A DNA stretch of 64,000 nt, taken from Patescibacteria group bacterium (GTDB lineage Bacteria; Patescibacteriota; Patescibacteriia; JACRDY01). The notes beneath the pieces are model-generated. The model ran no database searches, was not told the origin of the DNA, and saw nothing but the letters and a program-made list of their open reading frames with translations. The position numbers and the translations under genes are program-made. Shown here one piece after another: positions 2,273 to 44,949 of the stretch (position 1 is its first letter; every line of letters begins with the position of its first letter). The DNA lies in NCBI GenBank assembly GCA_041650515.1, contig JBAZLA010000005.1, positions 2,034-66,033 on the forward strand, read 5' to 3'.

Positions 2273-2301
2273 ATTTTTGATTTATTTAGTTAATATCTCT
2301 A

Positions 2302-2416
2302 TCGGGGATGCGGGATCCTTCGTCCCGACTTTACGTCGGGACTCAGGACAAGCCCGAACCCGCGACCTGTCCGATGGACATCGGACCGCGCTAGCCTCTG
2401 CCGGCTGGCGGATGCG
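2302..2416 (-). pseudogene. degenerate tRNA-like copy (T-arm/acceptor of tRNA-Pro) interrupted by a palindromic repeat unit
   Basis: A 29-bp direct repeat, tgtttaatatctctatcggggatgcggga, is shared with the 3' end of the adjacent tRNA-Pro. The T-stem halves GCGGG...CCCGC are retained, but the T-loop carries an inserted hairpin (gtcccgacgtaaagtcgggac gaaggatc). No acceptor 5' strand or canonical anticodon arm could be found. Confidence 0.4.
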
Positions 2417-2435
2417 TTTGTGTTTAATATCTCTA

Positions 2436-2509
2436 TCGGGGATGCGGGACTTGAACCCGCGACCTCACGCACCCGAAGCGTGCGCGCTAGCCAACTGCGC
2501 TAATCCCCG
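2436..2509 (-). tRNA. tRNA-Pro (anticodon CGG)
   Basis: Manual fold of CGGGGATTAGCGCAGTTGGCTAGCGCGCACGCTTCGGGTGCGTGAGGTCGCGGGTTCAAGTCCCGCATCCCCGA: 7-bp acceptor, D-arm GCGC/GCGC, anticodon stem CACGC/GCGTG with loop TTCGGGT (CGG), T-arm GCGGG-TTCAAGT-CCCGC. Confidence 0.8.
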
Positions 2510-2587
2510 GTAGAAATATCAAGCCAATACTCAGCTATATTACACGATAATTGCGAATTAATAAAGGGGAGGCTATAATAGCCCTAT

Positions 2588-3832
2588 ATGGCTGATTTAT
2601 TTGATAAAAACTATCACCAGCTTTCGCCGTTAGCTGACCGCATGCGTCCCAAAAAATTAGCTGATTTTATGGGTCAAGAGCATTTGGTTGGGCCGGAAAA
2701 ACTGTTGCGCCAAGCGTTAGAAGGGGATCAATTACCGTCAATGATTTTTTGGGGTCCGCCGGGCGTGGGTAAAACCACTTTGGCCCGGATTATCGCCGAG
2801 ATTACTCAGTCGGCTTTTATGCAGTTTAGTGCAGTGACTAGCGGGGTTAAAGAACTGCGCGAAGTGATTAAGAAAGCCAAGGATAGCTTAAAATATCATA
2901 GCCAAAGAACAATCTTATTTATTGACGAAGTCCATCGTTGGAATAAAGCCCAACAGGACGCGCTATTGCCGCATATTGAAGATGGCTCACTAATTTTGAT
3001 TGGCGCCACTACTGAGAATCCTTCGTTTGAGGTTAATTCCGCCCTGCTTTCACGTTGTCGGGTGTTTGTCTTAAATAAATTGTCTGGCCAGAATATTGCT
3101 GATTTGTTAGTTCGGGCAATTAAAGATAAAGAGAACGGCTATGGTAGTTTAAAAATAAAAGTTGATAAAGAAGTTATAAAATACTTAGCGGTGCTCAGCG
3201 ATGGTGACGCGCGGATTGCTTATAACGCTTTGGAGTTTGCGGTGACCGCGGCGCCCAAAGGCAAGGAAATAATTTTAGATCAAGATAAAATTAAGGAAGC
3301 ATTACAAAAGTCGCATTTGCTTTATGACCGCGCCGGAGAAGAACATTTTAATATTATCTCGGCATTGCACAAAAGTTTGCGCGGCTCTGACCCGGATGCA
3401 TCTTTATATTGGTTAGCGCGAATGCTTGAGGCCGGGGAGGATCCGCTTTACGTTGCTAGAAGATTAGTTCGTTTTGCTTCCGAGGATATTGGTCTGGCTG
3501 ACCCGCAGGCCTTAGTTCAAGCCGTTAGCGCTTATCAAGCTAGCCATTTTATTGGTATGCCAGAATGCAATGTGATTCTAGCTCAAGTGGTGGTTTATTT
3601 AGCCAAAGCGCCAAAAGACAATTCTTTGTATGTGGCTTATGGGCAGGTGCAAAAAGATGTTAAAGAAACCGAGGCTGATCCAGTGCCCCTGCATTTACGT
3701 AACGCGCCGACTAACTTGATGAAAGAGCTGGGTTATGGTAAAGGTTATAAATATAATCCCAATTTTGATTATCAGGGCGATATTCAGGATTATTTGCCGC
3801 CGAAATTAAAAGGGCGAAAATATTTGAAGTAG
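2588..3832 (+). CDS. rarA: replication-associated recombination protein A (AAA+ ATPase RarA/MgsA)
   Basis: Walker A WGPPGVGKTTLA, Walker B LFIDEVHRWNKAQQD and the RarA C-terminal helical domain. A good SD (aaggggagg) lies upstream. Confidence 0.9.
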   Translation: MADLFDKNYHQLSPLADRMRPKKLADFMGQEHLVGPEKLLRQALEGDQLPSMIFWGPPGVGKTTLARIIAEITQSAFMQFSAVTSGVKELREVIKKAKDSLKYHSQRTILFIDEVHRWNKAQQDALLPHIEDGSLILIGATTENPSFEVNSALLSRCRVFVLNKLSGQNIADLLVRAIKDKENGYGSLKIKVDKEVIKYLAVLSDGDARIAYNALEFAVTAAPKGKEIILDQDKIKEALQKSHLLYDRAGEEHFNIISALHKSLRGSDPDASLYWLARMLEAGEDPLYVARRLVRFASEDIGLADPQALVQAVSAYQASHFIGMPECNVILAQVVVYLAKAPKDNSLYVAYGQVQKDVKETEADPVPLHLRNAPTNLMKELGYGKGYKYNPNFDYQGDIQDYLPPKLKGRKYLK

Positions 3833-3840
3833 TTTTTTAC

Positions 3841-4043
3841 TGTCATCCTGAGCGGAGCCCCGCCTTTGGCGGGGCGCAGTTGAAGGATCCCTTTTTATGC
3901 CACAAGGATAAATATTTTACTAATGATTATTGGCGGATTAGGCTAATAATATTGAGTATTTTAGTTTATTTGATCAATTAAGTTTGAAATAATTTAATTC
4001 TGAGTGGATGGGAAAGTGATCCTTCACTTCGCTCAGGATGACA
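3841..4043. repeat. MITE-like element with terminal inverted repeats tgtcatcctgagcgg...gaaggatcc / gatccttc...gctcaggatgaca
   Basis: A ~200-bp AT-rich core is flanked by perfect inverted ends (3841-3890 and 4018-4043). The internal motif tttatgccacaagg matches, in inverted orientation, the copy at 28046-28204. Confidence 0.6.
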
Positions 4044-4109
4044 GAATAATAAGAGACAGTGATACCGCCAGGCCTAGATTGGGTCTAGTTGTTTGAATAT
4101 ATTGAAGAA

Positions 4110-4799
4110 TCAAATTATTTCTTTCTTATCTACGAACCGGTATTGGCCGGTTTTTAGGTTTCCTAGAGTTAGCTTGCCCTCTCTAAGTCGCTCTAGAAAA
4201 GTCGCGCGGCAGCTGACTGTTTTAAGCATTTCGCGCACTTGGCGTTTTTGACCCTCATGAATAGTGATTTTAATTTCGTTGTCTTTGACCATCACAATCT
4301 GGCATGGCGCGGTTTTTTTGTTTTCTAAAATTACGCCAGTTTCTAATTTGGTTTTTTTAGCTGACGAGAACTGACCAATAAAGCGGACCAAGTATTCTTT
4401 TTCGTGTTCAAAGCTGGGGTGGGTTAATTCTTGGGTTAGTTCGCCATCGTTAGTCATAATCAGTAAACCGCAGGAGTCTTTATCTAGTCGGCCGACTGGC
4501 CAGACTTTTTTTCTTAGTTCAGCCGGCAGTAATTCATAAATAGTTTTTTCGGCGTGGCGATCAAACCGGGTGGTGGTATAGCCAGTCGGTTTATTTAGAA
4601 CTAGATAAATATTTTTTTCTTTTGGTTCAATCGGTTTACCATTAACCAACACTTGGTCTTTATCTGGATCGATGCTGGTGCCGATTTTAGCGACTTGACC
4701 GTTGACCTGGACGCGGCCATTAGCAATAAAAACTTCGGCCGCTCGGCGTGAGCAAAACCCCGCTTGAGAAAGGAATTTTTGAAGGCGGATCTTAGCCAT
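4110..4799 (-). CDS. rRNA pseudouridine synthase (RsuA/RluB family, S4 domain + PseudoU_synth_2)
   Basis: S4 RNA-binding N-terminus (RLQKFLSQAGFCSRRAAEVFIANGRVQVNG) and the catalytic motif GRLDKDSCGLLIMTNDGEL. Confidence 0.85.
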   Translation of the reverse strand: MAKIRLQKFLSQAGFCSRRAAEVFIANGRVQVNGQVAKIGTSIDPDKDQVLVNGKPIEPKEKNIYLVLNKPTGYTTTRFDRHAEKTIYELLPAELRKKVWPVGRLDKDSCGLLIMTNDGELTQELTHPSFEHEKEYLVRFIGQFSSAKKTKLETGVILENKKTAPCQIVMVKDNEIKITIHEGQKRQVREMLKTVSCRATFLERLREGKLTLGNLKTGQYRFVDKKEII

Positions 4800-4855: not shown

Positions 4856-6499
4856 ATGCCAAAGTGTAAACATTGTCATCAAGACTTTACCATTGATCAG
4901 CAAGAGCAGCAGTTTTATCAAGAGATAAAAGTACCGACGCCGACCTTTTGTCCGGACTGTCGCCAACAGCGGCGTTTGGCTTGGACTAACGAGCTAACAT
5001 TATATAACCGGAAGTGCGATCTGACTGGCAAAAATGTTATCTCGATGTTCAATCCTGATGTGCCCTTTCCGGTTTATGATTTTCATGAGTGGTGGGGCGA
5101 CAAGTGGGACGCTGGTAAATATGGCGCTGACTATAATCCAGAGCAATCTTTTTTTGACCAATTTATTGCGCTAAAAAATCGCGTGCCCCACCCATCGCTG
5201 GAGGCTAATATCACTCTACAGAATAGCGACTATACTAACTACTGCGGTTATGCGGTTAATTGTTTTTTGATCTTTGATTCGGCTTATACTGAGAATTGTT
5301 ATTATGGTTATACACTAATCCGCTGCAAAGAGGCGGTGGACTGCATGAAGAGCCATGGCTGTGAATACTGTTATTATTGCTCCGATTGTACCAGCTGTTT
5401 CAAACTCAAGTATAGCCAGGACTGCAATAAATGCTCCGAAAGTTATTTCCTTAAATATTGTTCCGGTTGTAACAGTTGTTTTGGTTGTATCAATCTGCGA
5501 AACAAAAGTTATTGTTGGTTAAATAAACAGCTGACGCCGGAAGAATATAATAAGCGATTGGCAATGGTTGATTTTGGCAGTCGGGAAGTAGTGGCTAAAG
5601 TCAAAAGCAAGTTTGATGAATTTTGTCTACGTTATCCGCACATCGCCATTCACGGCATCAAAAACGAGGATTGCAGTGGCGATTATTTGAATAGCACCTT
5701 TCAGACTGTTGCTTCTTATGATTGCCGCGATGTTCAAAATTGCCGCTACTCTTATTCTATCAGTTTGGGCGGCAAGGATGTCTATGATGTGTTTCAATTC
5801 GGCGGCGAGAGCCAGATCTTGTATGAAAGCGTGGTTTCCGGCTATAAAAATTATAACTGCAAATTTTGCTATCAAAGCTATACCAGCGGCCAAAATCTGG
5901 AATATTGCTTCAATTGCCTTGGTTCTAAAAATTGTTTTGGCTGTGTTGGTCTGCGCAAAAGGGAATTTTGTATCCTTAATAAACAATATAGCGAGGCTGA
6001 GTATAACCGGTTAAAAGAAGAGATAATTGTCAAAATGACGGCCACTGGCGAGTACGGCGAGTTTTTACCGGCTTCAATGTCACACCATGGCTATAACGAA
6101 ACCAGCGCCATGTTTTATTATCCTTTAACTAAAGAGCAGGCAACAGCTCAAGGATTTTGGTGGTATGACAAAAAAGTAACTGCGCCGGCGGTTAGTAAAA
6201 TAGTGCCGGATAATATTAAGGAAGTTCCTGACGCAATCACTAGCGATGTTTTTGTTTGTAGTTGTGGCAAGTCTTACCGGGTTACCACCCAGGAGTTAAA
6301 ATTTTATCGTGCTTTTAGTATCCCAGTGCCCGAAAAGTGCTATATTTGTCGTCATGTTGACCGGCTGTTCCAACGTAATCCGCAGCATCTTTGGGAACGT
6401 AGCTGTAGTAAGTGCGGTCGGGCGATGCAGACAACTTATGCTCCAGAGCGGCCGGAAATCGTCTATTGTAAAAAGTGTTTTCAAGATGATGTTTATTGA
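4856..6499 (+). CDS. large cysteine-rich protein, paralog 1 (twin terminal zinc-ribbon-like motifs, C-x2-C repeat core); function unknown
   Basis: 547 aa with >40 Cys. N-terminal CKHC..FY..VP.P.FCPDCRQQRR and C-terminal CSCGK..FYRAF.IPVPEKCYICRH motifs. Internal repeats NCFGC(I/V)(N/G)LR...C(W/I)LNKQ. Paralogous to 6897-8579 and 43278-44951. Confidence 0.7.
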   Translation: MPKCKHCHQDFTIDQQEQQFYQEIKVPTPTFCPDCRQQRRLAWTNELTLYNRKCDLTGKNVISMFNPDVPFPVYDFHEWWGDKWDAGKYGADYNPEQSFFDQFIALKNRVPHPSLEANITLQNSDYTNYCGYAVNCFLIFDSAYTENCYYGYTLIRCKEAVDCMKSHGCEYCYYCSDCTSCFKLKYSQDCNKCSESYFLKYCSGCNSCFGCINLRNKSYCWLNKQLTPEEYNKRLAMVDFGSREVVAKVKSKFDEFCLRYPHIAIHGIKNEDCSGDYLNSTFQTVASYDCRDVQNCRYSYSISLGGKDVYDVFQFGGESQILYESVVSGYKNYNCKFCYQSYTSGQNLEYCFNCLGSKNCFGCVGLRKREFCILNKQYSEAEYNRLKEEIIVKMTATGEYGEFLPASMSHHGYNETSAMFYYPLTKEQATAQGFWWYDKKVTAPAVSKIVPDNIKEVPDAITSDVFVCSCGKSYRVTTQELKFYRAFSIPVPEKCYICRHVDRLFQRNPQHLWERSCSKCGRAMQTTYAPERPEIVYCKKCFQDDVY

Positions 6500-6896: not shown

Positions 6897-8579
6897 ATGC
6901 CTCAATGTAAAAATTGCGGCCAGGAATTTATTATCACCGAACAAGATCGGTCTTTTTATAATCGGATTAATGTACCGGAACCGCAAATTTGTTGGGCTTG
7001 CCGGCGGCAACGGCGGCTAGCTTGGCGCAACGAGCGGGTGTTGTATCGGCGCAAGTGTGATTTGTGTCAAACAGAGATGGTTTCGCTGTATCCAGAAAAC
7101 AATCCCACGCCGATTTATTGTCATGAATGTTGGTGGAGTGATAAATGGGGTGGCGCTGATTATGCTCAAGATTTTGATTTTTCCCAACCGTTTTTTGAGC
7201 AGTTTAGCCAGTTAATCAAAAATGTGCCGCGCTTAACTATTATTAATAGCAAAGGTATCAATAGTGATTTTTGTAATTATTCTTACGCCAACAAGAATTG
7301 TTACCTAACTATTGGCTGTCATTATGAAGAAGATTGTTTTTATAATGATCACAGTACCAAGAACCATTCTTGTTTAGAATTAGCTCGTTCGATAAACTGT
7401 GAGTTGTCTTGCAATTGTGTTGATAGCGCAAAATGTTATCAATGTAGCTACTTAGATTTTTGTAAGGAATGTAATAACTGTCATTTTTGCTACAACTGTT
7501 CTGGTTGCCATGATTGTTTTTTGTCTAGCGACCAGTTAAACCAAAAATACGTTTTTAAAAATAAACAATTAACTCCTCATAATTATCAGCAAACAGTCGG
7601 TGATTATTTGAGTGGTAGTTACCAACAGTTTGAACGAGCTCAGCAAGAGTATTTAGAAATTGTTAAAAATACGATTAAAAAATATACCCACCAAGTTTAT
7701 TGTGTTGATTGTGTTGGCGACGATTTGGTTAATTGCAAAAATTTGCGTTATTGTTTTGATGCCACTGGTTGTGCTGATTGCGCTTATGGCGTGCAAATGG
7801 ATGAGCAATATGATTCACGGGATAACGATTATATGGGTTATGATCGGTCAGAAGTTTGTTTGGAGACGATTGGCTGTTCGGGGGTTTTTAATTGCTATTT
7901 TTGTGATTCTTGTTGGCATGATCATCATTTGCAATACTCTAATCTAGCTTTTGGCTCTAATGACTGTTTTGGTTGTGTGGGGATAAAAAACCAGAAATAT
8001 TGTATTTTAAATAAACAATATTCCGAAGATGAATACAAAAAATTATTATCCAAAGTTATTGATCATCTTAAGAAAACAGGGGAGTATGGCTGGTTTTTCC
8101 CCCTTGGTCTTTCACCCTATGGTTATAATGCCACGGTTAATATGGAACCGTATAACCAACCCCTAAACAAAGTGGAGGTCTCTGAGCTTGGTAGCTGGTG
8201 GCAAGAGAATACACCGGGTACTTTTGGCAAGGAAACCATCAACCAATTGCCTGATAATATTGGCGAAGTCGGTGATAATATTATTAAAGAGATTTTAGCC
8301 TGCGCTAATTGTCATAAAAATTTTAAAATCATTACCCAAGAATTGGAGCTTTATAAAAAATTAAATCTACCCTTGCCGCGACTTTGTCCGGATTGCCGTT
8401 ATTTTGCTAGGATCAAGCGGCGGCAGCCACGTCAGTTGTATTTGCGTCAGTGTATGTGTTCTAAAAATCATCAGTGGCATCAGGGGAAAAGTTGTCCTAA
8501 TAAATTTGAAACGGTCTACTCGCCAACTGGCGCGGAGCAACTTTATTGCGCTGAATGTTATCGACAGGAAACCTATTAA
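6897..8579 (+). CDS. large cysteine-rich protein, paralog 2; function unknown
   Basis: 560 aa with the same architecture as 4856-6499: MPQCKNCGQEF...CWACRRQRRLAWRNE at the N-terminus and CANCHKNFKIITQELELYKKLNLPLPRLCPDCRY at the C-terminus, plus the conserved TGEYGWFFP...SPYGYNAT block. Confidence 0.7.
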   Translation: MPQCKNCGQEFIITEQDRSFYNRINVPEPQICWACRRQRRLAWRNERVLYRRKCDLCQTEMVSLYPENNPTPIYCHECWWSDKWGGADYAQDFDFSQPFFEQFSQLIKNVPRLTIINSKGINSDFCNYSYANKNCYLTIGCHYEEDCFYNDHSTKNHSCLELARSINCELSCNCVDSAKCYQCSYLDFCKECNNCHFCYNCSGCHDCFLSSDQLNQKYVFKNKQLTPHNYQQTVGDYLSGSYQQFERAQQEYLEIVKNTIKKYTHQVYCVDCVGDDLVNCKNLRYCFDATGCADCAYGVQMDEQYDSRDNDYMGYDRSEVCLETIGCSGVFNCYFCDSCWHDHHLQYSNLAFGSNDCFGCVGIKNQKYCILNKQYSEDEYKKLLSKVIDHLKKTGEYGWFFPLGLSPYGYNATVNMEPYNQPLNKVEVSELGSWWQENTPGTFGKETINQLPDNIGEVGDNIIKEILACANCHKNFKIITQELELYKKLNLPLPRLCPDCRYFARIKRRQPRQLYLRQCMCSKNHQWHQGKSCPNKFETVYSPTGAEQLYCAECYRQETY

Positions 8580-8586: not shown

Positions 8587-8687
8587 GTCATTGCGAGCGG
8601 AGCGAAGCAATCTCCCGAATATATTGAAGAGATTGTTTCGTCGCCTCGCCTCCGCCAACTGGCGAAGGCGAGGCTCCTCACAATGAC
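8587..8687. repeat. palindromic repeat unit (gtcattgcgagcggagcgaagcaatc ... caatgac type)
   Basis: Inverted ends gtcattgcgag / ctcacaatgac, plus nested hairpins (agcaatctc..gagattgtt; gcctcgcc..ggcgaggc). Same family as 31144-31217 and 28205-28260. Confidence 0.55.
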
Positions 8688-9041: not shown

Positions 9042-9066
9042 CTCCCTTCCGAGGGAGTTTTTTTTA
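9042..9066 (+). terminator. rho-independent terminator
   Basis: Hairpin ctccct-tccg-agggag followed by a T8 run. Confidence 0.6.
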
Positions 9067-9086: not shown

Positions 9087-9650
9087 ATGAGTCAACGCGT
9101 CTTTATCGCTTTAAACTTACCCGCGACGGTTAAAAATGAGCTGGGCGGTGTAATTTTACAGTTGCAAAAGCAGCTGTCTGGTCAGCCAATTAAGTGGGTC
9201 GACCCGCCGATTTTACACCTGACTTTGCACTTTTTAGGTGAAATAGACGATCAAACTTTAGCCGAAGTTGCCAAATTATTGACAGTAGAAATAGCTAAAT
9301 ACCCCGTGCTTAGTTTAGCGCTGGGTAAACTTGGTTGTTTTACTTTGCCTAATGGTTCACCTCGAGTAATCTGGGTAGAATTAAACGAGGTTGGTGGTGA
9401 AAGTTTGCGTCAGCTGCAGAGCGCTCTTAAAAAAGGGTTAGAAGATTTAGGATTAGAAACCGATCACCGGTCTTGGCAGACTCATATTACTCTGGGGCGG
9501 GTTAAAGATGAGACTAGATTTTCTTTACCGTCAGTAAAAATTGCACCACTTAATTTTTTGGTTGAAACGATTGATCTGATGAAAAGCGAACTGCAGCCAG
9601 GTGGTCCGATCTATACGTCGCTAGAGAAATTTAATTTAAAAAAAGAATGA
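9087..9650 (+). CDS. thpR: RNA 2',3'-cyclic phosphodiesterase (2H phosphoesterase, ThpR/LigT family)
   Basis: Two H-x-T/S-x motifs: HLTLHFLG and HITLGR. ~187 aa, typical ThpR size. Confidence 0.8.
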   Translation: MSQRVFIALNLPATVKNELGGVILQLQKQLSGQPIKWVDPPILHLTLHFLGEIDDQTLAEVAKLLTVEIAKYPVLSLALGKLGCFTLPNGSPRVIWVELNEVGGESLRQLQSALKKGLEDLGLETDHRSWQTHITLGRVKDETRFSLPSVKIAPLNFLVETIDLMKSELQPGGPIYTSLEKFNLKKE

Positions 9651-10849
9651 AGATTAGTATTTTAGGTGTTAACATCGATAGCTTAAGCTGGTCCGAGGTC
9701 TTAGCCCGGGTTCAAAGTTTTTTGGTTTCGCCAGGCCGATATACTATTGTAACGCCCAATCCGGAATTTATTGTTTTGGCGCAGCGTGACGAAAAATTCA
9801 AACATGTTTTAAATTCAGCCAGTCTGGCTGTGCCCGATGGTGTTGGTTTGGTGCTGGCGTCTTATTTACTGGGTAATAGAATCAATCGGCGCATCGCTGG
9901 TGTTGACCTGGTAGAAAAAATTTGTCAGTTGGCAGCATATAATAATAAGTCGATTTATTTCTTGGGCGGACAAGCTGGAGTCGGAGAAAAAGCGGCGACA
10001 GTATTGCAGCAAAAATTTCCTAAATTAAAGATTGCTGGTGTTAATTCAAATTTAATTATTCCAGCTCAGGGTCAGGCCGCTGATTATCAAAATCAAGCGG
10101 TTATTGATCGGGTCAATCAAGCGCAGCCTGATATTTTGCTGGTAGCTTTAGGCCAGGGCAAACAGGAAAAATGGATCTATCATAATTTAAGTAAGTTGCC
10201 GTCGGTTAAAATTGCCATGGGCGTGGGCGGCAGTTTAGATTTTATTTCTGGCATTGTCAAACGAGCGCCAGTACTTTGGCGACGATTGGGTCTTGAATGG
10301 CTTTGGCGGCTATTTACTCAGCCATGGCGTCTGGGCCGGATTTGGCGGGCCACAGTTTATTTTAGTTATTTAGTAATCAGATTTAGATTCCAGCAGCCGT
10401 GGCGGCGACGTAATGTTTGCGGTTTTATTTATAATAACGAGGGCAAAGTTTTTGTCGCCGAGCGAGTTGGTTCGCAAGATCATTGGCAATTACCCCAAGG
10501 GGGAGTAGACAAAGGTGAGACACCACAGCAAGCGATTATCAGAGAGTTAGCCGAGGAGCTAGGTACAGATAAATTTGAAATTAAACGGCGGTGTCATTTG
10601 ACGGTTTGTTATAATTTTTCTGATGCTAAACTTTTTAGCTCCGTTTATGGTCCTTATCCCGGTCAAAAACAGTCAATTTTTATCCTAAAATTCGTTGGTG
10701 AAAATGTAGATTTTCATTTAGATAAAGATGTTTTTACCGCTTGGCAGTGGGTGGCGCCGGAGCAACTATTAGATAAGTTACATTATTATCGTCGTCCAGT
10801 CGCTGATATTGCTTTAACTGAGCTTAGGGAGCTAAATAAATCCTTGTAA
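9647..10849 (+). CDS. fusion protein: WecB/TagA/CpsF-family glycosyltransferase (N-terminal ~240 aa) + NUDIX hydrolase (C-terminal ~150 aa)
   Basis: The TagA-like region (VPDGVGLV, EWLWRLFTQPWRLGRIWRATVYF) runs in-frame into a Nudix box, GGVDKGETPQQAIIRELAEELG. Confidence 0.75.
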   Translation: MKISILGVNIDSLSWSEVLARVQSFLVSPGRYTIVTPNPEFIVLAQRDEKFKHVLNSASLAVPDGVGLVLASYLLGNRINRRIAGVDLVEKICQLAAYNNKSIYFLGGQAGVGEKAATVLQQKFPKLKIAGVNSNLIIPAQGQAADYQNQAVIDRVNQAQPDILLVALGQGKQEKWIYHNLSKLPSVKIAMGVGGSLDFISGIVKRAPVLWRRLGLEWLWRLFTQPWRLGRIWRATVYFSYLVIRFRFQQPWRRRNVCGFIYNNEGKVFVAERVGSQDHWQLPQGGVDKGETPQQAIIRELAEELGTDKFEIKRRCHLTVCYNFSDAKLFSSVYGPYPGQKQSIFILKFVGENVDFHLDKDVFTAWQWVAPEQLLDKLHYYRRPVADIALTELRELNKSL

Positions 10850-10884: not shown

Positions 10885-12354
10885 ATGGCTAAAAATACTA
10901 AAGTGCGCGTTCGTTTTGCGCCTAGTCCGACTGGCTATCTCCATATTGGCGGGTTACGGACCGCTTTGTATAATTATTTATTTGCCAAGAATAATGGTGG
11001 TGATTTTGTTTTGCGGATTGAAGATACTGATCAAGATCGCTCAGTGGTCGGCGCAGTAGAAAATTTACTTAATACTTTAAAATGGGCGGGTTTGGATTAT
11101 GATGAAGGGCCAAGTATCGGCGGTCAGTATGGGCCCTATGTTCAATCGGAGCGGTTAGGTTTGTACCGTCAGTATGCTGATGAGTTAGTACAAAGAGGCC
11201 AGGCTTATTATTGTTTTTGTTCATCCGAGCGTTTGACCGAGCTGCGCGACGGTTTGACTGCCCAGAAACAACCGCCGATGTATGATCGACATTGTCTGAA
11301 TTTAGATCCAGCCGAAGTTAAAGAGCGGATTAAAAAGGGTGAACCACATGTTATTCGATTAAAGATTCCTGAGGGTAAAACCAAATTTAAAGATTTGATC
11401 AAAGGTGAGGTGGAAATTGATAATAAAACGATTGACGACCAAGTTTTGTTAAAGTCTGATGGTTTTCCGACTTATCATTTGGCAGTGGTTGTTGATGACC
11501 ATTTAATGAAGATTACGCACGTGCTGCGTGGTGACGAATGGCTACCGAGCACGCCCAAGCATGTTTTGCTCTACCAAGCTTTTGGCTGGAGTGCACCAGA
11601 GTTTGCTCATCTGCCCACCATTGTTAATAAAGACAAAACTAAATTATCCAAGCGCCAGGGCGATGTGGCGGTGGAGGATTATATTAAACAAGGTTATCTG
11701 CCCCAAGCAATAATTAATTTTATTGTTTTACTTGGTTGGAATCCCGGGCAGGGGAGTGAGGAGGAGGTTTTTAGTCTGGACCAGTTAATTAAAAAGTTTT
11801 CATTTGACCACGTGCATAAGAGTAACGCGGTTTTTGATCGTGATAAATTAGATTGGTTTAATGGTGTTTATATCCGTCAGCTAACTCCAGATGAACTTTT
11901 GGACTATGCCTTGTCTTATTTTAATTCAACTGATTTGGGCGACAAGTTTGATGCTGAATATATTAAAAAGGTAATCAGTCTCGAACAGAGTCGAATTAAA
12001 AAATTAGTCGAGTTGCCGCTTTTGACCAAATTTTTCTTTGAAGACAACCTGGATTATCCGGCTCAGATTTTGGTTTGGAAAAAATCAGACAAGAATAAGG
12101 CCCAAGAAGTTTTGGCCAAATTATTTACAACTTTAGAACAAATTGAGGCTCAAGATTGGCAACCGGCCAAACTGGAGGCGGTGGTTGTTGATTGGATTAA
12201 AAATAACAGTTTAACTAACGGCGAGGTGATGTGGCCGTTGCGGGTAGCTCTAACCGGTCAAGAAGCTTCACCTGGACCGTTTGAGGTAGCAGCAGTTTTA
12301 GGTCCAAAGCGCAGCCTAAATCGGATCCAAAAAGCAATAGATAAACTTAAATAA
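10885..12354 (+). CDS. gltX: glutamate--tRNA ligase
   Basis: Class I motifs PSPTGYLHIGG (HIGH) and KLSKR (KMSKS), ~489 aa. Confidence 0.9.
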   Translation: MAKNTKVRVRFAPSPTGYLHIGGLRTALYNYLFAKNNGGDFVLRIEDTDQDRSVVGAVENLLNTLKWAGLDYDEGPSIGGQYGPYVQSERLGLYRQYADELVQRGQAYYCFCSSERLTELRDGLTAQKQPPMYDRHCLNLDPAEVKERIKKGEPHVIRLKIPEGKTKFKDLIKGEVEIDNKTIDDQVLLKSDGFPTYHLAVVVDDHLMKITHVLRGDEWLPSTPKHVLLYQAFGWSAPEFAHLPTIVNKDKTKLSKRQGDVAVEDYIKQGYLPQAIINFIVLLGWNPGQGSEEEVFSLDQLIKKFSFDHVHKSNAVFDRDKLDWFNGVYIRQLTPDELLDYALSYFNSTDLGDKFDAEYIKKVISLEQSRIKKLVELPLLTKFFFEDNLDYPAQILVWKKSDKNKAQEVLAKLFTTLEQIEAQDWQPAKLEAVVVDWIKNNSLTNGEVMWPLRVALTGQEASPGPFEVAAVLGPKRSLNRIQKAIDKLK

Positions 12355-12409: not shown

Positions 12410-13645
12410 ATGAAAAAACAAAAATCAAAAACTAATAAAATATTAGCAATATTTGGGGTAATTGTAGTTACCTTATTTTTGTTTAATTTTAAATCAATTT
12501 TTAGCCAGGCTAGAACCAGCGATCAATTGATTTTGGAATTGCAGCAGGATGTTGAACTGAAAAAATTAGAAATTGATAAACTGGAAAAGAGGATTAAGGT
12601 TTACGAAGATAATTTGGAAGCCAAGCGGAAAGAAAAAATTAGCCTAACTAATGAGCTGGAAATTTTATCAGAAAAAATAAATCAGTTGGAGCTAGAGTTA
12701 GAGCGAAACCAATTACAGATAGATTCGGTTAATCTAGAGATTCAGTCAGTTTTACTCAAAATTTCTGATCAAGAAGGTAAGATTGCAGAGAAGAAAAACC
12801 AAATTGCCGAATTAATTCAGCTGATTAGTTATAATGATGATCAAAATTATCTAGAAATTTTGGCCAGTCATCAGACTTTTTCTGATTTTTTTGATCAGGT
12901 CTATTATACTCAAAAAATTGAAAGTAATCTTAAAAACTCTTTAGATGGAATTAAGATTCTGAAGGCTGATCTGGAAGAAGAAAAGACCGAGTTGGATACC
13001 CGGAGCCAAGAATTAGCTGGCCTTAAAGAAGAGTTAGAAAAAAATAAAGCTAAATTGGATGAGCAAGAAGGAGCAAAAACTTATTATTTAGTTAAAGCCA
13101 AACAATCGGAAAAACAATTTCAGTCACTTATTTCGCAAGCGCAGCAAGAGCAGCAGGCGATTAATAACGAGATTGTTGGTTTAGAAAGAACCTTGCGTAA
13201 ACAATTAGCTGAGGCTGATAAAGCACTGCCGAGTACGGGCAGTTTGGTTTGGCCGGTGCCCAAGAATGTAGTTACCTCTTATTTCCACGATCCTGATTAT
13301 CCTTTTCGTTATATTTTTGAGCACCCAGCAATCGATATCCGCGCCGCTCAGGGAACGCCGGTCAAAGCGGCTGATAGCGGCTATGTTGGTAAAGTCCAAA
13401 ATGGTGGCAAAACCGGTTATAGTTATATCATGATCATTCATGATAAGGGTTTATCAACGGTTTATGGTCATGTGAGTAAAATTTATGTTAAAGAAGACAG
13501 TTATGTATCTCAGGGTGATATTATCGGTTTAAGTGGGGGAACGCCGGGTACATCTGGCGCTGGTCGTTTATGCACTGGTCCGCATATGCATTTTGAGGTG
13601 CGGCTAGATGGTATTCCTGTCAATCCTTTGGATTATTTGCCCTAA
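12410..13645 (+). CDS. M23 family metallopeptidase with N-terminal TM anchor and long coiled-coil (EnvC-like)
   Basis: N-terminal TM helix, ~250-aa heptad-rich coiled coil and a C-terminal LytM/M23 domain (HPAIDI..., GHVS..., HMHFEV). Confidence 0.8.
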   Translation: MKKQKSKTNKILAIFGVIVVTLFLFNFKSIFSQARTSDQLILELQQDVELKKLEIDKLEKRIKVYEDNLEAKRKEKISLTNELEILSEKINQLELELERNQLQIDSVNLEIQSVLLKISDQEGKIAEKKNQIAELIQLISYNDDQNYLEILASHQTFSDFFDQVYYTQKIESNLKNSLDGIKILKADLEEEKTELDTRSQELAGLKEELEKNKAKLDEQEGAKTYYLVKAKQSEKQFQSLISQAQQEQQAINNEIVGLERTLRKQLAEADKALPSTGSLVWPVPKNVVTSYFHDPDYPFRYIFEHPAIDIRAAQGTPVKAADSGYVGKVQNGGKTGYSYIMIIHDKGLSTVYGHVSKIYVKEDSYVSQGDIIGLSGGTPGTSGAGRLCTGPHMHFEVRLDGIPVNPLDYLP

Positions 13646-13663
13646 GTTGTGGATAACCCCCTT

Positions 13664-13687
13664 GCTGGGGGTTTTTCGATGTGCTAT
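13664..13687 (+). terminator. rho-independent terminator
   Basis: Hairpin ccccc-ttgct-ggggg followed by ttttt, just after the M23 peptidase stop. Confidence 0.5.
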
Positions 13688-17040: not shown

Positions 17041-19443
17041 TTAATATTTTTTATTTTGGATTAATTTTTCTAGAAGTTCTCTGGGGAAAATTGGTGGAGT
17101 CTCGGCTAGAGCTTGTTGATACAGGACTGTTGAGGGGGTTAAACCTGGCAAGGTGTTGACCTCAATAATTAATAAATCGCCGGTTTGAATATTAACAAAG
17201 GCATCGATTCGGGCATAGCCACGCAGGCCAATTTTTTTGGCTACTAGTTGGATCGATTTTTTTATTTTTGATAATACTGCGGGTTTAATAATATCTTTTG
17301 GCGGCGGGGTGATATTAATTCCAGTGCCGCCTTGGAATTTTTCTTCCACAGTTAGCACCTCCCCTTCTACCACCGTGATACTGGGGTTAAAAGCTTTAAG
17401 CGTGTTGTGATCCTCCACGACGCCAACGGTTATTTCGACCCAGCCGGTACGATGGCCGTGTTTTAATTGATTATTGTGCGCTCGCAGGATGTCAGTATAT
17501 ACAAACTGCTCTAGCAGTAATTCGGTGGGCGGGCTTGGCGGCATTTCGATAATACTTAGCTGGTTTTGAAATGTTTGTTTGGGTATACAGCCATCGCCGG
17601 TGGCGATAATTTTTAGATATTTTGCCAAATCGTTGGCGGAATAAAGATGAGCAATCCCCGTGCTGCAGCCATCGCCGCGCGGTTTGATGATTAATGTTTT
17701 GGCGGTCAGCTCTTTTTGGGCTTTGGTCCAGAGCTGTTCAATTTGTTTTTGGTTAAATTTTATGGCGGTTTTGGTTTTGATTATTTTTCCAGGAACAGAT
17801 TTAACCCCGGGTATTTTTAATTGGTTAATAAAATTGGCCGTTGCCCGTTTATCCATACACAGGCGCGAAGCTTGTTCCTCTGGGCCGTTAAACCGTACTC
17901 CCCTCTTAGTTAGTATTTTTTGGAGGTTGCCGTTTTCACCATCACCACCGTGCAGAGCAATAAAAATGAAATCAGACTCTTTAATCAGTTGATTAAAGTT
18001 TAGTTTCTCCGGCGCAAAAAAATCTTTCTTGTCTTTAATCTCCGTTAAACCAAGGTGTAGCCTGGCTCTTTCCTCGAACGAAGTTAGTCTTTTGGCGGCC
18101 GCTTGATAATGGCGGCAATTTTGGGTGATTTCTTCAACTGTGTGATTAAGACAGAGATGATAGGGCAAGCGCCAGATTAAGCCTTGGGGGTCTAATAAAT
18201 AAGGTTTGGGTTGATATTTAGTTGACCGGCGAAGCTTAAGCCAGACATTAGTGCCGCTCATCAGTGAAACTTGTCTTTCCGAGTCAGCGCCGCCCATCAG
18301 AACACTGACCGGCTGACGACGTGTGGTAATGGTTTTTTGAGCAACCGGAAACGGTATATTATAACGGTTACAAGTTCGTTTGATGATATATTGTAAAACG
18401 TCACTATGCGTTAGGCCGATCCGACTGGCTTGTTGAAAAAGAAAACTATTTTGCTCCATGCCGCTGATCATATTAAAGTCGCAGAACCAGATTTGGCCGT
18501 TGGGTAGTACCCAGCCATCGAACCGGCCAAAATCGCGCATTTTGAATAGTGAAAAAAGTTGTTCACCTTGAGCTTGGATTTTTTCAATTATTTTGTCGTT
18601 AAATCTTGGCGGGCAATGCCAGGTTACTTGGTGGGTGGGTAGATATTTTTTGCGAAAATCAAAAATCTGGTGTTCGGTGTAATCGGTTTCGATCTCGGTT
18701 GGCGGCAGGGCCACGGGTAACCCCAGGTGATTTTCTAAAATAATCATGGTAAATTCTGTGCCTTTGGCAAACGGTTCAATAACCACCCGGTTGGTAGTCC
18801 GCTGGGAAAAAAGTAGTTTAGCTTTAGCTAGAGCCTGGTTCGGAGTGGCCACGGAAAAAACACCAATACTCGAGCCACCAATAGCGGGTTTAACGATCGC
18901 TCGTTTAATTTGATAATTTTTGAAGAATTTTTTCACTATTTGACGGTGGTCGGAATGATTAATTCTGAGCACCGCTGACGGTAGGGTAAAAAATCCTTGT
19001 TGTTTAATAAACTCGTTAGCGATAAATTTATCAAAAGCCTGGCGGCAAGTCGGAGCGCTTGAGCCGACAAAAGGTAAATGGTGCTTTGCCAAAAAACTCT
19101 GGATCTGGCCGTCCTCGCCAAACTGGCCATGCATGGCTGGAAAAGTGATATCTATTTTTTTGAGTAAACTAACTAACCCTTTGGCGGTCAGTGGTTGAGC
19201 GGTTTGTTTGAGTTTAAAATCAAAATCAGATGGCGTGTTGCTATATAATTGAGCTTTGGAAATCTGGTAAGGGTTTTTTTGAGTATCAAAATAAATCGGT
19301 ATAATTTCTATCTGGGCCGATTGTAAGTGATCCATCAGCGACCGGGAAGAATTTAGCGAAATCCCCCGCTCGGCCGAGGGACCGCCGCAGAGAACAGCTA
19401 CTTTTAGTTTGGCTGTTGTTTTTTTTGAGTTAATATTTGACAT
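17041..19443 (-). CDS. ddl: tandem-duplicated D-alanine--D-alanine ligase (two complete ATP-grasp Ddl modules fused, 800 aa)
   Basis: Two Ddl N-terminal signatures (KVAVLCGGPSAERGISLNS and VSVLMGGADSERQVSLMSG). The C-terminal Ddl motif ARIDAFV...IIEVNTLPGLT is complete, and the first half has a diverged ATP-grasp C-terminal region. Confidence 0.8.
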   Translation of the reverse strand: MSNINSKKTTAKLKVAVLCGGPSAERGISLNSSRSLMDHLQSAQIEIIPIYFDTQKNPYQISKAQLYSNTPSDFDFKLKQTAQPLTAKGLVSLLKKIDITFPAMHGQFGEDGQIQSFLAKHHLPFVGSSAPTCRQAFDKFIANEFIKQQGFFTLPSAVLRINHSDHRQIVKKFFKNYQIKRAIVKPAIGGSSIGVFSVATPNQALAKAKLLFSQRTTNRVVIEPFAKGTEFTMIILENHLGLPVALPPTEIETDYTEHQIFDFRKKYLPTHQVTWHCPPRFNDKIIEKIQAQGEQLFSLFKMRDFGRFDGWVLPNGQIWFCDFNMISGMEQNSFLFQQASRIGLTHSDVLQYIIKRTCNRYNIPFPVAQKTITTRRQPVSVLMGGADSERQVSLMSGTNVWLKLRRSTKYQPKPYLLDPQGLIWRLPYHLCLNHTVEEITQNCRHYQAAAKRLTSFEERARLHLGLTEIKDKKDFFAPEKLNFNQLIKESDFIFIALHGGDGENGNLQKILTKRGVRFNGPEEQASRLCMDKRATANFINQLKIPGVKSVPGKIIKTKTAIKFNQKQIEQLWTKAQKELTAKTLIIKPRGDGCSTGIAHLYSANDLAKYLKIIATGDGCIPKQTFQNQLSIIEMPPSPPTELLLEQFVYTDILRAHNNQLKHGHRTGWVEITVGVVEDHNTLKAFNPSITVVEGEVLTVEEKFQGGTGINITPPPKDIIKPAVLSKIKKSIQLVAKKIGLRGYARIDAFVNIQTGDLLIIEVNTLPGLTPSTVLYQQALAETPPIFPRELLEKLIQNKKY

Positions 19444-38295: not shown

Positions 38296-38358
38296 AAATA
38301 GTTGCCAGTGGCAAGTAGCAAGCGTACTTTCAAACTCGCTACTCGTAACTTGTTACTG

Positions 38359-39366: not shown

Positions 39367-39386
39367 AAACTATTTTTTGGCTAAAT

Positions 39387-42024: not shown

Positions 42025-42079
42025 AATAATAGTTGAAAGTTGTCGACTTTACGAATTTTATAACTTTATAACTTGTTAC

Positions 42080-44942: not shown

Positions 44943-44949
44943 AATAATC

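What the first reader, a model, noticed from the sequence alone, without database searches (positions are those of the whole stretch)
9647..10849. In-frame fusion of a TagA/WecB-family glycosyltransferase with a NUDIX hydrolase
The first ~250 aa are a typical TagA/WecG/CpsF transferase. That family uses UDP-ManNAc-type donors on polyprenyl-PP-GlcNAc. The last ~150 aa carry a canonical Nudix box, GGVDKGETPQQAIIRELAEELG. A Nudix domain could hydrolyse the nucleotide-sugar donor or the released UDP, or proofread donors. I am not aware of this fusion as a standard architecture. Its position next to thpR is also notable.
Basis: seen in the sequence. Interest (0 to 1): 0.5.

Follow-up and report, generated by a model that had tools for sequence, protein, structure and literature searches.

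The report
Glycosyltransferase fused to RppH-like Nudix hydrolase
This is a genuine single gene, conserved across many ultra-small (Patescibacteria/CPR) bacteria, that joins a cell-wall-polymer glycosyltransferase (TagA type) directly to a Nudix hydrolase of the RNA-5'-end/dinucleotide-polyphosphate type rather than a sugar-nucleotide type; why the two are joined is still unknown.

Summary
Window 9647-10849 (+) is one uninterrupted 400-aa ORF: a complete GT26 (WecB/TagA/CpsF) glycosyltransferase, including its catalytic C-terminal membrane-binding tail, followed with no linker by a Nudix domain with a canonical Nudix box. It is not a frameshift or assembly artefact. The identical protein is in NCBI, 119 of the 120 best homologues carry both domains at 37-45% identity, and 123 of the 150 best 50%-identity cluster representatives span the junction. 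All reliably named sources are Patescibacteria.

The Nudix domain belongs to the NudH/RppH/Ap4A-hydrolase subfamily, not a UDP-sugar type. The fusion sits in a conserved block thpR - tagA(±nudix) - gltX - M23 peptidase. Split forms (tagA|nudix|gltX), Nudix-less forms and one TagA-GluRS fusion also exist, so it probably arose by stop-codon loss between neighbouring genes. thpR adjacency does not depend on the Nudix domain.

Best reading (about 0.5): a bifunctional enzyme in which an RppH/ApnA-type pyrophosphohydrolase rides on membrane-associated TagA without sharing substrates. Direct coupling (UDP removal) is not excluded.

Caveat: this window's copy has Val where 204 of 213 relatives have the Glu/Asp Mg2+ ligand.

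Side finding: in one subclade a functional-looking tRNA-Gly(CCC) gene is nested in-frame inside this ORF.

The parts
9647..10849 (+). Fused gene: 400-aa TagA(GT26)-Nudix protein (end coordinate includes the stop codon)
   Evidence: Single ORF. Both Pfam domains. Identical protein in public databases and 119/120 best homologues with the same architecture. AlphaFold2 model mean pLDDT 92.7, pTM 0.79.
9647..10261 (+). GT26 glycosyltransferase core (aa 1-205), with catalytic T36, D64, Q173 and D198
   Evidence: Aligns with T. italicus TagA 7MPK (E 8e-48). Foldseek TM 0.95, rmsd 1.5-2.0 to 7MPK/5WB4. T36, D64 and Q173 are each 213/213 and D198 is 207/213 in the family. They correspond to T37, D65 and D191 of TagA (PMC6493773).
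10262..10393 (+). TagA C-terminal appendage (aa 206-249): R221, R228 (leaving-group Arg, equivalent to TagA R221), R231, hydrophobic membrane patch L210/L216/L219/F223, and long amphipathic helix 226-249
   Evidence: Alignment to TagA. R221 213/213, R228 210/213, R231 213/213, and the patch positions stay hydrophobic. Role of the appendage from PMC6493773. Helix 226-249 in the model. Unfused TagAs end 34-43 residues after GLEW, which is exactly here.
10403..10846 (+). Nudix domain (aa 253-400), NudH/RppH/Ap4A-hydrolase subtype, starting at the R8-equivalent R254 with no linker
   Evidence: Pfam. NCBIfam RppH models best. PDB sequence hits 1F3Y and RppH. Foldseek RppH TM 0.80-0.83. R254, N256, R273, Q284, Y322, Q340 and R382 are the equivalents of RppH R8, N10, R27, Q37, Y77, Q95 and K140. 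The spacing R231..R254 is 23 residues in 201/213.
10499..10567 (+). Nudix box GGVDKGETPQQAIIRELAEELGT (aa 285-307), with metal-binding E300, E303 and E304
   Evidence: Regex match, the only one in the window. E300 211/213, E303 201/213 (plus 8 Asp), E304 212/213.
10730..10732 (+). Codon GTT = V362, at the position of RppH Mg2+ ligand E120; atypical for the family
   Evidence: This column is E in 153 and D in 51 of 213 fused proteins, and Val in only 2 including this one. E120 is a Mg ligand in RppH (PMC7144940). D361 precedes it.
9087..9650 (+). thpR (RNA 2',3'-cyclic phosphodiesterase, 2H/LigT family); its stop overlaps the fusion's start (ATGA)
   Evidence: TIGR02258 E 4.6e-37, 127.6 bits against a cutoff of 65.7. 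Pfam LigT_PEase. The same adjacency occurs in 18 of 80 related loci, both fused and unfused.
10885..12354 (+). gltX (glutamyl-tRNA synthetase), the conserved downstream neighbour
   Evidence: Pfam tRNA-synt_1c plus Anticodon_2. Downstream of tagA(±Nudix) in most of the 80 loci.
12410..13645 (+). Coiled-coil M23 peptidase (PcsB-like), the last gene of the conserved block
   Evidence: Pfam Peptidase_M23 plus CC_PcsB. Conserved after gltX in most loci.
9042..9057 (+). Terminator-like hairpin plus T-run just upstream of thpR (probable start boundary of the thpR-tagA::nudix-gltX-M23 unit)
   Evidence: Consensus scan only.
13658..13671 (+). Terminator-like hairpin plus T-run just after the M23 peptidase gene (probable end of the unit)
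   Evidence: Consensus scan only.

Best explanation
Shown: the gene encodes a real, widely conserved two-enzyme protein of Patescibacteria. The N-terminal 250 residues are a complete GT26 (TagA/WecG-type) inverting glycosyltransferase with every published catalytic residue and its C-terminal appendage. That appendage both completes the active site and binds the membrane. The C-terminal 150 residues are a Nudix pyrophosphohydrolase of the NudH/RppH/Ap4A-hydrolase subtype. It begins exactly where free-standing TagA proteins end, with no linker. Inferred origin: tagA and this Nudix gene were neighbours in a conserved housekeeping unit (thpR-tagA-nudix-gltX-M23 peptidase), and they were joined by loss of the tagA stop codon. 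Inferred mechanism: the two active sites work on different substrates. TagA adds a sugar from a UDP-sugar to a polyprenyl-PP-linked acceptor at the inner face of the membrane. The Nudix domain cleaves polyphosphate-bearing nucleotide ends (5'-tri/diphosphate or Np4-capped RNA, ApnA, possibly (p)ppGpp), as RppH/NudH does. The fusion gives equal dosage with TagA and tethers the hydrolase to the membrane surface through TagA's amphipathic tail. This resembles the way E. coli RppH is physically paired with the cell-wall enzyme DapF without sharing substrates. In this window's copy the Nudix site may be weakened, because V362 replaces a Mg2+-ligand Glu/Asp.
For: Architecture and recurrence. TagA completeness: full-length alignment to 7MPK, fold TM 0.95, and T36/D64/R221/R228/R231 present in 210-213 of 213 against the features published in PMC6493773. 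Nudix subtype: RppH NCBIfam models rank best; 1F3Y Ap4A hydrolase E 2e-24 and RppH E 4e-13; standalone relatives are named RppH or (di)nucleoside polyphosphate hydrolase at 36-42% identity; Foldseek RppH TM 0.80-0.83. The phosphate contacts and Mg ligands listed in PMC7144940 are conserved in 166-212 of 213 (Y322). Independence of the two functions: about 20 related genomes have tagA followed directly by gltX with no Nudix; the same Nudix subtype occurs as a free gene away from tagA (L084, L087, L088, L092); split tagA|nudix|gltX forms keep both genes intact (L081, L089, L090/L091). TagA's C-terminus has also fused to GluRS in L073, which is an obviously non-metabolic pairing. Other tandem fusions occur in these genomes: TagA-TagA P0079 and a double Ddl in the window. 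Precedent: RppH-DapF binds at nanomolar affinity with the active sites far apart (PMC6061855).
Against: No enzyme assay exists for any member. The junction is rigid and of constant length (23 residues between R231 and R254 in 201/213). pTM 0.79 for a 250+150-residue protein implies a defined inter-domain packing (inference). Both are more than a purely accidental fusion needs. The tagA-nudix pairing survives at least three differently built split junctions, which hints at selection for co-expression. The TagA-linked Nudix clade has a remodelled nucleobase cleft (His at the S32 and V137 positions, V/I at F139, Arg at K140) compared with canonical RppH/NudH (A, V, F, K), so its substrate may differ from classical RppH substrates. 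I could not examine whole genomes to see whether fused genomes lack any other RppH. I had no model coordinates or PAE, so I could not measure the geometry of the two active sites.
Confidence: 0.5

Rival explanations
1. Catalytic coupling through the nucleotide. The Nudix domain removes the UDP released by TagA (UDP to UMP + Pi), or trims the UDP-sugar donor pool. This relieves product inhibition and makes the first committed step of the polymer pathway effectively irreversible.
For: RppH-type enzymes remove the beta-phosphate from 5'-diphosphate ends and slowly hydrolyse free NDPs (PMC7144940 abstract; text). The join has no linker, a constant length and a confidently packed model. tagA-nudix adjacency is retained in three independent split forms. 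The nucleobase cleft is remodelled relative to canonical RppH, with two conserved His, which could fit a different base such as uracil (inference).
Against: There is no similarity to known UDP-sugar or GDP-sugar Nudix enzymes beyond the superfamily level (GDPMH 24 bits against a cutoff of 146). About 20 related TagAs work without any adjacent Nudix. The same Nudix subtype occurs away from tagA. The full set of tri/polyphosphate contacts (R8, N10, R27, Q37, Y77, Q95, K140 equivalents) is kept, which is more than a diphosphate needs. Degrading UDP to UMP would be wasteful for organisms that depend on nucleotide salvage (inference).
Confidence: 0.2
2. Lipid-linked substrate editing. Held at the membrane surface next to TagA's lipid-entry pore, the Nudix domain cleaves the pyrophosphate of undecaprenyl-PP-sugar intermediates (or Und-PP itself) and so recycles Und-P from stalled intermediates.
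For: The Nudix domain starts right after the amphipathic tail helix (H12 equivalent, aa 226-249), which in TagA lies at the membrane and lines the lipid pore (PMC6493773). Some Nudix enzymes are known to hydrolyse non-nucleoside prenyl diphosphates (my own knowledge, not tested here). The organism has Wzx/Wzy-type polyprenyl-linked glycan genes.
Against: The nucleotide-binding features of RppH are retained (R273, equivalent to R27, in 166/213; basic residue at the K140 position in 202/213). The closest characterised relatives all use nucleotide substrates. There is no hydrophobic-tunnel evidence and no precedent in this subfamily.
Confidence: 0.07
3. Regulatory or sensor domain. The Nudix module mainly binds a nucleotide signal (Ap4A, (p)ppGpp) and tunes TagA activity or its membrane binding. 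Hydrolysis is secondary, or lost in this window's copy.
For: This window's protein has V362 at the Mg-ligand position that is E/D in 204/213. Non-catalytic Nudix domains are typically parts of multidomain proteins (PMC5389931). RppH binds (p)ppGpp (PMC7144940). The inter-domain connection is rigid.
Against: Across the family all catalytic residues are conserved at 94-99%, which indicates selection for catalysis. D361 next to V362 may substitute for the missing ligand. E300, E303, E304 and Q284 are intact in this copy.
Confidence: 0.1
4. Artefact: two separate genes joined by a sequencing frameshift, a missed stop codon or a chimeric assembly.
For: Only the general prior for metagenome-assembled genomes. 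Split versions do exist in some genomes.
Against: The frame is uninterrupted. More than 200 independent full-length fused homologues from many projects have the same junction spacing. The model is confident across the junction, with pLDDT 85-98.
Confidence: 0.01

Closest known systems
TagA/TarA (GT26, GT-E fold) of Thermoanaerobacter italicus / S. aureus / B. subtilis (PDB 5WB4, 5WFG, 7MPK, 7N41; PMC6493773, PMC8784642)
   Same: 36-37% identity over the core, TM 0.95. The catalytic Thr, Asp and ribose-contact Asp, and the appendage Arg residues (R214/R221/R224 equivalents), are all present. The hydrophobic membrane patch is retained. Length up to the natural C-terminus is the same.
   Different: It carries a 150-aa Nudix domain on the C-terminus. 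It scores below the NCBIfam TarA equivalog cutoff (168 against 350), so the donor sugar and the polymer made are unknown. It is not in a teichoic-acid operon but in a thpR-gltX-M23 block.
E. coli RppH (NudH/YgdP) RNA pyrophosphohydrolase / Np4 decapping enzyme (PDB 4S2Y, 6VCK, 7SP3; PMC7144940)
   Same: Same fold (TM 0.80-0.83, 28-29% identity). Same Nudix box. Equivalents of R8, N10, R27, Q37, Y77, Q95, K140 and the GQKQ motif are present.
   Different: It lacks RppH's N-terminal 7 residues, which are replaced by the TagA tail. The cleft residues differ (H279, H379, Y381 for S32, V137, F139). It falls below the NCBIfam RppH cutoffs (100.7 against 116). This copy has V362 for E120.
Lupinus angustifolius Ap4A hydrolase (PDB 1F3Y/1JKN) and alphaproteobacterial NudH/IalA-type (di)nucleoside polyphosphate hydrolases
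   Same: It is the best sequence match among solved structures (E 2e-24, about 40% identity over 134 residues). The standalone relatives found are named RppH or (di)nucleoside polyphosphate hydrolase at 36-42% identity.
   Different: Those are free-standing, soluble, single-domain enzymes. The canonical cleft signature A/V/F/K is replaced by H/H/(V,I)/R in the TagA-linked clade.
E. coli RppH-DapF complex (PDB 6D13, 6D1Q, 5YGU; PMC6061855, PMC4227774)
   Same: An RppH-type Nudix enzyme is physically coupled to an enzyme of cell-envelope precursor synthesis, with no shared substrate and the active sites far apart. This is the nearest precedent for pairing RppH with a cell-wall enzyme.
   Different: That pairing is a non-covalent 2:2 complex with an epimerase. 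Here it is a covalent fusion to a membrane-associated glycosyltransferase. No evidence here shows that TagA stimulates the Nudix activity.
GDP-mannose mannosyl hydrolase (NudD/WcaH) of the colanic-acid cluster
   Same: It is a Nudix enzyme genetically linked to polysaccharide synthesis (my own knowledge). It appears as a weak structural hit (2I8T/1RYA, TM 0.59-0.62).
   Different: It belongs to a different Nudix subfamily (24 bits against a cutoff of 146), it is a separate gene, and it acts on the sugar nucleotide. It is not a member match.

Membership tests
GT26 WecB/TagA/CpsF glycosyltransferases | Match to the family profiles above curated cutoffs | tested here: met
   PF03808 193.9 bits against 27.4. 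TIGR00696 158.6 bits against 69.
GT26 WecB/TagA/CpsF glycosyltransferases | GT-E fold as in TagA crystal structures | tested here: met
   Foldseek to 7MPK/5WB4: TM(target) 0.92-0.95, rmsd 1.5-2.1, on a model with pLDDT 92.7.
GT26 WecB/TagA/CpsF glycosyltransferases | Catalytic base Asp65, Thr37 and the appendage Arg221 (T. italicus numbering; PMC6493773) | tested here: met
   D64, T36 and R228 by alignment. They are conserved in 213, 213 and 210 of 213 family members.
GT26 WecB/TagA/CpsF glycosyltransferases | C-terminal appendage with a non-polar membrane patch; peripheral membrane association | tested here: inconclusive
   The sequence and helices are present, and the patch positions L210, L216, L219 and F223 are hydrophobic. 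Membrane binding itself cannot be tested here.
TagA/TarA proper (UDP-ManNAc:Und-PP-GlcNAc ManNAc transferase) | NCBIfam equivalog score; UDP-ManNAc donor; teichoic-acid gene context | tested here: not met
   NF041710 168 bits against a cutoff of 350. No tagO/mnaA/tagB-type genes were found near it or in the ORFs of >=110 aa scanned in the 64-kb window. Donor specificity cannot be tested.
Nudix hydrolase superfamily | Nudix box GX5EX7REUXEEXGU and the Nudix fold | tested here: met
   The box is at aa 285-307. PF00293 72.3 bits against 21.1. Fold hits to many Nudix structures.
RppH/NudH (RNA pyrophosphohydrolase / ApnA hydrolase) subfamily | NCBIfam RppH equivalog cutoffs | tested here: not met
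   The best is NF001938 at 100.7 bits against a cutoff of 116; the others fall further below. These are the closest models but the scores are sub-threshold.
RppH/NudH (RNA pyrophosphohydrolase / ApnA hydrolase) subfamily | Phosphate-contact residues R8, N10, R27, Q37, Y77, Q95, K140 (PMC7144940) | tested here: met
   R254, N256, R273, Q284, Y322, Q340 and R382 in the window protein. Family conservation is 211, 171, 166 (plus 14 Lys), 206, ~all, 206 and 191 (plus 11 Lys) of 213.
RppH/NudH (RNA pyrophosphohydrolase / ApnA hydrolase) subfamily | Mg2+ ligands E53, E57, Q37, E120 | tested here: inconclusive
   E300, E304 and Q284 are present. The E120 position is V362 in this protein, although it is E/D in 204/213 relatives. 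D361 is adjacent.
RppH/NudH (RNA pyrophosphohydrolase / ApnA hydrolase) subfamily | Nucleobase cleft R27 / S32 / V137 / F139 | tested here: inconclusive
   R273 is kept, but the other positions are H279, H379 and Y381. The TagA-linked clade signature H/H/(V,I)/R differs from the canonical A/V/F/K.
RppH/NudH (RNA pyrophosphohydrolase / ApnA hydrolase) subfamily | Hydrolysis of ppp/pp-RNA 5' ends, Np4 caps or ApnA | not testable with these tools
   This needs enzyme assays.
Nucleotide-sugar Nudix hydrolases (GDPMH/NudD, UDP-sugar diphosphatases) | Profile match to a sugar-nucleotide Nudix family | tested here: not met
   Only NF011963 GDP-mannose mannosyl hydrolase appears, at 24.2 bits against a cutoff of 146. 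No UDP-sugar family is listed.

The most novel reading that the evidence does not exclude
The fusion is a functional Rosetta stone. The RppH-like domain is mechanistically coupled to the first committed glycosyl transfer of a CPR cell-wall polymer. It would either destroy the UDP product or edit lipid-PP-sugar intermediates at the membrane face, or it would make RNA 5'-end decay or alarmone turnover report directly on envelope synthesis, as a covalent version of the enigmatic RppH-DapF link. The remodelled base cleft, with two conserved His, would then mark a new substrate specificity within the NudH subfamily.
Probability: 0.25. Interest if true: 0.7.

Novelty: new variant of a known kind. 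Interest (0 to 1): 0.5.

Why it matters
Both halves are well-understood enzyme types, but joining them is an undescribed domain architecture. It is common in a large, uncultivated bacterial radiation and is currently annotated only as 'WecB/TagA/CpsF family glycosyltransferase', so the Nudix half is invisible in annotations. If the domains are coupled, this would be a new way of driving or policing a committed step in cell-wall glycopolymer synthesis, or a second independent case (after RppH-DapF) of RNA-end or alarmone metabolism wired to envelope synthesis. If they are not coupled, it is a clean example that conserved fusions in streamlined CPR genomes can arise from stop-codon loss between syntenic neighbours (compare TagA-GluRS). 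That is a warning against reading every Rosetta-stone fusion as a functional link. The family also yielded a tRNA gene nested in-frame in a protein-coding gene under purifying selection, which deserves its own study.

Tried and rejected
- **Frameshift or misassembly:** rejected on recurrence.
- **Sugar-nucleotide Nudix identity:** rejected at the subfamily level.
- **thpR as a Nudix-specific partner (an RNA-end repair pair):** rejected, because thpR abuts unfused tagA too.
- **Single versus multiple origin of the fusion:** NJ trees of the TagA domains and the Nudix domains are star-like. Fused and unfused sequences interleave, so this is unresolved and no claim is made.
- **L086 (P0247) as a split form:** discarded, because the ORF runs off the contig end and may be a fragment of a fused gene.
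- **L094 (P0201):** a TagA-tail plus Nudix ORF with an inverted TagA fragment, possibly an assembly artefact, so not used.
- **afdb50 fold search:** the library was unavailable.
- **Second Nudix gene or tagO/mnaA in the window:** none found.
- **Literature searches:** TagA+Nudix, Glyco_tran_WecG+NUDIX, CPR+teichoic acid and Patescibacteria+RppH returned nothing on this architecture, and the Nudix-clan survey does not mention it.
- **Record titles:** 'uncultured Gammaproteobacteria bacterium' on the CAY*/CAZ* records, and single 'Bacillota' and 'Binatia' labels, were not taken at face value. Those loci share the Patescibacteria-type synteny and interleave with named Patescibacteria. This is an inference.
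- **Model coordinates or PAE:** not obtainable, so the inter-site geometry could not be measured.
Full report
**1. Observation.** Window 9647-10849 (+) is a single ATG-initiated ORF of 400 codons with no internal stop. Pfam finds Glyco_tran_WecG (PF03808, aa 58-232, E 2e-57) and NUDIX (PF00293, aa 253-382, E 5e-20), both far above their gathering scores. The quoted Nudix box is at aa 285-307 and is the only one in the 64-kb window. The upstream gene 9087-9650 is ThpR/LigT (TIGR02258, E 5e-37), and its stop overlaps the start of the fusion (ATGA).

**2. Not an artefact.** The identical 400-aa protein is held by NCBI, JGI, ENA and Logan. NCBI names it 'WecB/TagA/CpsF family glycosyltransferase [Patescibacteria group bacterium]', on a 127.9-kb contig.
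- Of the 120 best homologues, 119 carry both Pfam domains at only 37-45% identity. The exception, P0079, is a TagA-TagA tandem.
- I ran an exhaustive HMMER search of 1.84 billion 50%-cluster representatives with a query spanning the junction (aa 190-400). It returned 930 hits at E<=1e-10. Of the 150 best, 123 contain both domains with one alignment running across the junction.
- In one-genome-per-species GTDB contigs, 58 of the 80 best loci are fused. Informative organism names are all Patescibacteria: Uhr-, Jackson-, Falkow-, Magasanik-, Kuenen-, Doudna- and Parcubacteria.
- One batch of records is titled 'uncultured Gammaproteobacteria'. These share the same synteny and interleave with named Patescibacteria, so I treat those labels as unreliable (inference).

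**3. The two halves.**
- **N-terminal half.** It aligns end to end with T. italicus TagA (7MPK, E 8e-48) and superposes on it with TM 0.95. The features that the TagA structure paper defines are catalytic base D65, T37, ribose-contact D191, and R221 supplied by a C-terminal appendage whose non-polar face binds the membrane (PMC6493773). They map to D64, T36, D198 and R228, with L210/L216/L219/F223 at the membrane-patch positions. D64, T36 and R221 are invariant in 213 full-length family members, and R228 is present in 210/213. The protein reaches the GT26 superfamily cutoff but not the TarA equivalog cutoff (168 against 350 bits), so the donor sugar is not established.
- **C-terminal half.** It is closest to RppH models (100.7 bits, just under the cutoff of 116), to lupin Ap4A hydrolase 1F3Y (E 2e-24) and to E. 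coli RppH (E 4e-13). Standalone proteins found are named RppH or (di)nucleoside polyphosphate hydrolase (36-42% identity). Structurally it matches RppH with TM 0.80-0.83. Sugar-nucleotide Nudix families do not match (GDPMH 24 bits against 146).
- **Conserved RppH residues.** RppH's phosphate contacts (R8, N10, R27, Q37, Y77, Q95, K140) and Mg ligands (E53, E57, Q37, E120) (PMC7144940) have equivalents R254, N256, R273, Q284, Y322, Q340, R382, E300 and E304, which are conserved in most of the family.
- **Two qualifications.** First, the E120 position is E/D in 204/213 but Val (V362, codon 10730-10732) in this window's protein. Second, the nucleobase cleft of the TagA-linked clade reads H/H/(V,I)/R where canonical NudH/RppH reads A/V/F/K.

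**4. Junction and origin.** Free-standing Patescibacteria TagAs end 34-43 residues after the GLEW motif. In the fusion the RppH-R8 equivalent sits at +40, so there is no linker. The spacing between R231 and R254 is 23 residues in 201/213. The AlphaFold2 model (pLDDT 92.7, pTM 0.79) shows helix 226-249 running straight into the first Nudix strand.

The gene sits in a conserved order thpR - tagA(±nudix) - gltX - M23 peptidase. In the window, terminator-like hairpins at 9042-9057 and 13658-13671 bracket this unit (consensus scan only). Four states of the block exist:
- **Fused:** 58 loci.
- **tagA followed directly by gltX, with no Nudix:** about 20 loci.
- **Split tagA|nudix|gltX, with three different junctions.** L081 has the two genes in the same frame with a 76-nt hairpin-containing spacer. 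L089 has a 145-nt gap. L090/L091 have overlapping frames, seen in two samples.
- **TagA-GluRS fusion:** one 746-aa ORF in L073, in which TagA's stop is lost and translation runs into GltX's own start Met.

Fusion of TagA's C-terminus to whatever lies downstream, by stop-codon loss, is therefore the likely route. The same Nudix subtype also occurs as a free gene away from tagA (L084, L087, L088, L092). thpR abuts or overlaps unfused tagA as well (L056, L057, L065, L066, L070, L073), so its adjacency is not tied to the Nudix domain. NJ trees could not resolve whether the fusion arose once.

**5. Mechanism.**
- **Shown:** two complete catalytic modules under selection in one polypeptide, with the Nudix module of the RppH/ApnA-hydrolase type.
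- **Inferred, best (about 0.5):** independent chemistries. TagA acts on a polyprenyl-PP-linked acceptor at the membrane; the window has a Wzx/Wzy cluster at 53.9-61 kb and many GT2/GT4 genes. The Nudix domain acts on polyphosphate-bearing nucleotide or RNA ends. The fusion supplies co-dosage and membrane tethering. [quoted passage not shown]
- **Rivals:** UDP or UDP-sugar removal coupled to TagA (about 0.2); lipid-PP-sugar editing (about 0.07); a sensor role (about 0.1); artefact (about 0.01).
- **What keeps the coupling rivals alive:** the rigid constant-length junction, the confident inter-domain packing, the persistence of adjacency in the split forms, and the remodelled base cleft.
- **What argues against obligate coupling:** the Nudix-less TagAs, the free Nudix copies and the TagA-GluRS fusion.

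**6. Novelty.** I found no paper on this architecture. Databases annotate only the glycosyltransferase half. I rate it a new variant (a new domain architecture) of known enzyme kinds.

**7. Side finding.** This is outside the window but inside this gene family.
- **Where it is.** In L007 (Jacksonbacteria), L005, L095 and L096, a tRNA-Gly(CCC) gene lies inside the TagA-Nudix ORF on the same strand, in the Nudix beta1-beta2 loop (ARAGORN). It scores 71-72 bits on Rfam RF00005 against a gathering score of 29.
- **Evidence it is a functional tRNA.** The CCA end is encoded. The cloverleaf is 100% paired, and 5 of 21 pairs show compensatory double changes against none in the slid controls.
- **Evidence the ORF is read through it.** The tRNA begins at the same codon phase in all four loci. 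The ORF stays open even though L005 reads part of it in another frame. The downstream Nudix sequence has dN/dS 0.16-0.33 with saturated synonymous sites.
- **How widespread.** The same translated signature occurs in at least seven distinct database proteins. Other members carry repeat-like inserts in the same loop.
- **Open question.** How a transcript can yield both a tRNA and a protein read through it is unexplained. One literature search found no precedent.

**8. Limits.** There is no biochemistry. I had no access to the rest of this genome or to whole related genomes. I had no model coordinates or PAE. The trees are crude NJ trees. The promoter and terminator calls are consensus matches only.

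Noticed in passing
L007:1804-1878 (ORF 852-2309); L005:2827-2902 (ORF 1974-3293); L095:3794-3868 (ORF 3001-4266); L096:1356-1430 (ORF 521-1834): A tRNA-Gly(CCC) gene is nested in-frame, on the same strand, inside the TagA-Nudix ORF (Nudix beta1-beta2 loop) in one subclade. Rfam scores are 71-72 bits and the CCA end is encoded. All 84 cells of the cloverleaf pair, with 5 of 21 pairs showing compensatory changes. The downstream coding sequence has dN/dS 0.16-0.33. The insert is translated as e.g. GCSSVVERLLPKQEIAGSSPVTRS, and the same signature occurs in P0063, P0084, P0105, P0109, P0138, P0141 and P0147. It is unexplained how the mRNA is both translated through the tRNA and processed to release it..
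   Followed up: partly
L073:477-2717: A single 746-aa ORF carries a GT26 TagA domain plus a complete glutamyl-tRNA synthetase. TagA's stop is lost and the frame reads into GltX at its own start Met. This shows that TagA's C-terminus fuses with whatever gene lies downstream.
   Followed up: partly
L081:1217-2485; L089:3-935; L090:2-989; L091:1-679: Split versions of the same pair (tagA | nudix | gltX) exist with three differently built junctions. In L081 the two genes are in the same frame, separated by a 76-nt spacer containing a hairpin (GGATCTAC...GTAGATCC), which suggests fission by a small insertion.
   Followed up: partly
window 10730-10732: V362 sits at the position of RppH Mg2+ ligand E120. 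Only 2 of 213 family members have Val here, while 204 have E/D. This particular copy may have an attenuated Nudix site.
   Followed up: partly
window 17041-19443 (-): An 800-aa ORF contains two D-Ala-D-Ala ligase units (both the Ddl N and C domains match twice). This is another tandem fusion in the same genome.
   Followed up: no
window 4856-6499 (+), 6897-8579 (+), 43278-44951 (-): Three paralogous Cys-rich proteins of about 550 aa match only the 'probable treble clef' zinc-finger models (zf_Tbcl) at their ends. Their function is unknown.
   Followed up: no
window 53914-61000 (-) and 37168-46505 (-): A Wzx/Wzy-type polysaccharide cluster (Wzy_C/O-antigen-ligase-like, two GT2, two GT4, a Wzx flippase, and a nearby nucleotidyltransferase) plus further GT2/GT4 genes, MreB and a DUF4012 protein. 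The organism clearly makes polyprenyl-linked surface glycans.
   Followed up: no
P0079 (481 aa, NCBI, contigs up to 197 kb); P0146 and P0205: TagA-TagA tandem fusion (P0079) and Nudix-Nudix tandem proteins (P0146, P0205) occur among relatives.
   Followed up: no
P0060, P0052, P0097 (alignment A1 columns ~405-440): In-frame repeat-like inserts (…RHPERSEAESRDL…) occur in the same Nudix beta1-beta2 loop that hosts the tRNA in other members, so this loop is an insertion hot spot.
   Followed up: no
window 9087-9650 / 9647; L056, L065, L066, L073: The thpR stop codon overlaps the tagA start in the window and in several genomes with unfused tagA. This is a recurrent tight thpR-tagA coupling with no obvious functional rationale.
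   Followed up: partly
window 8643-8674: A 15-nt near-perfect inverted repeat (GCCTCGCCTCCGCCA / TGGCGAAGGCGAGGC) lies in the gap between the zf_Tbcl gene and the small membrane-protein gene. It is possibly a REP-like element.
   Followed up: no
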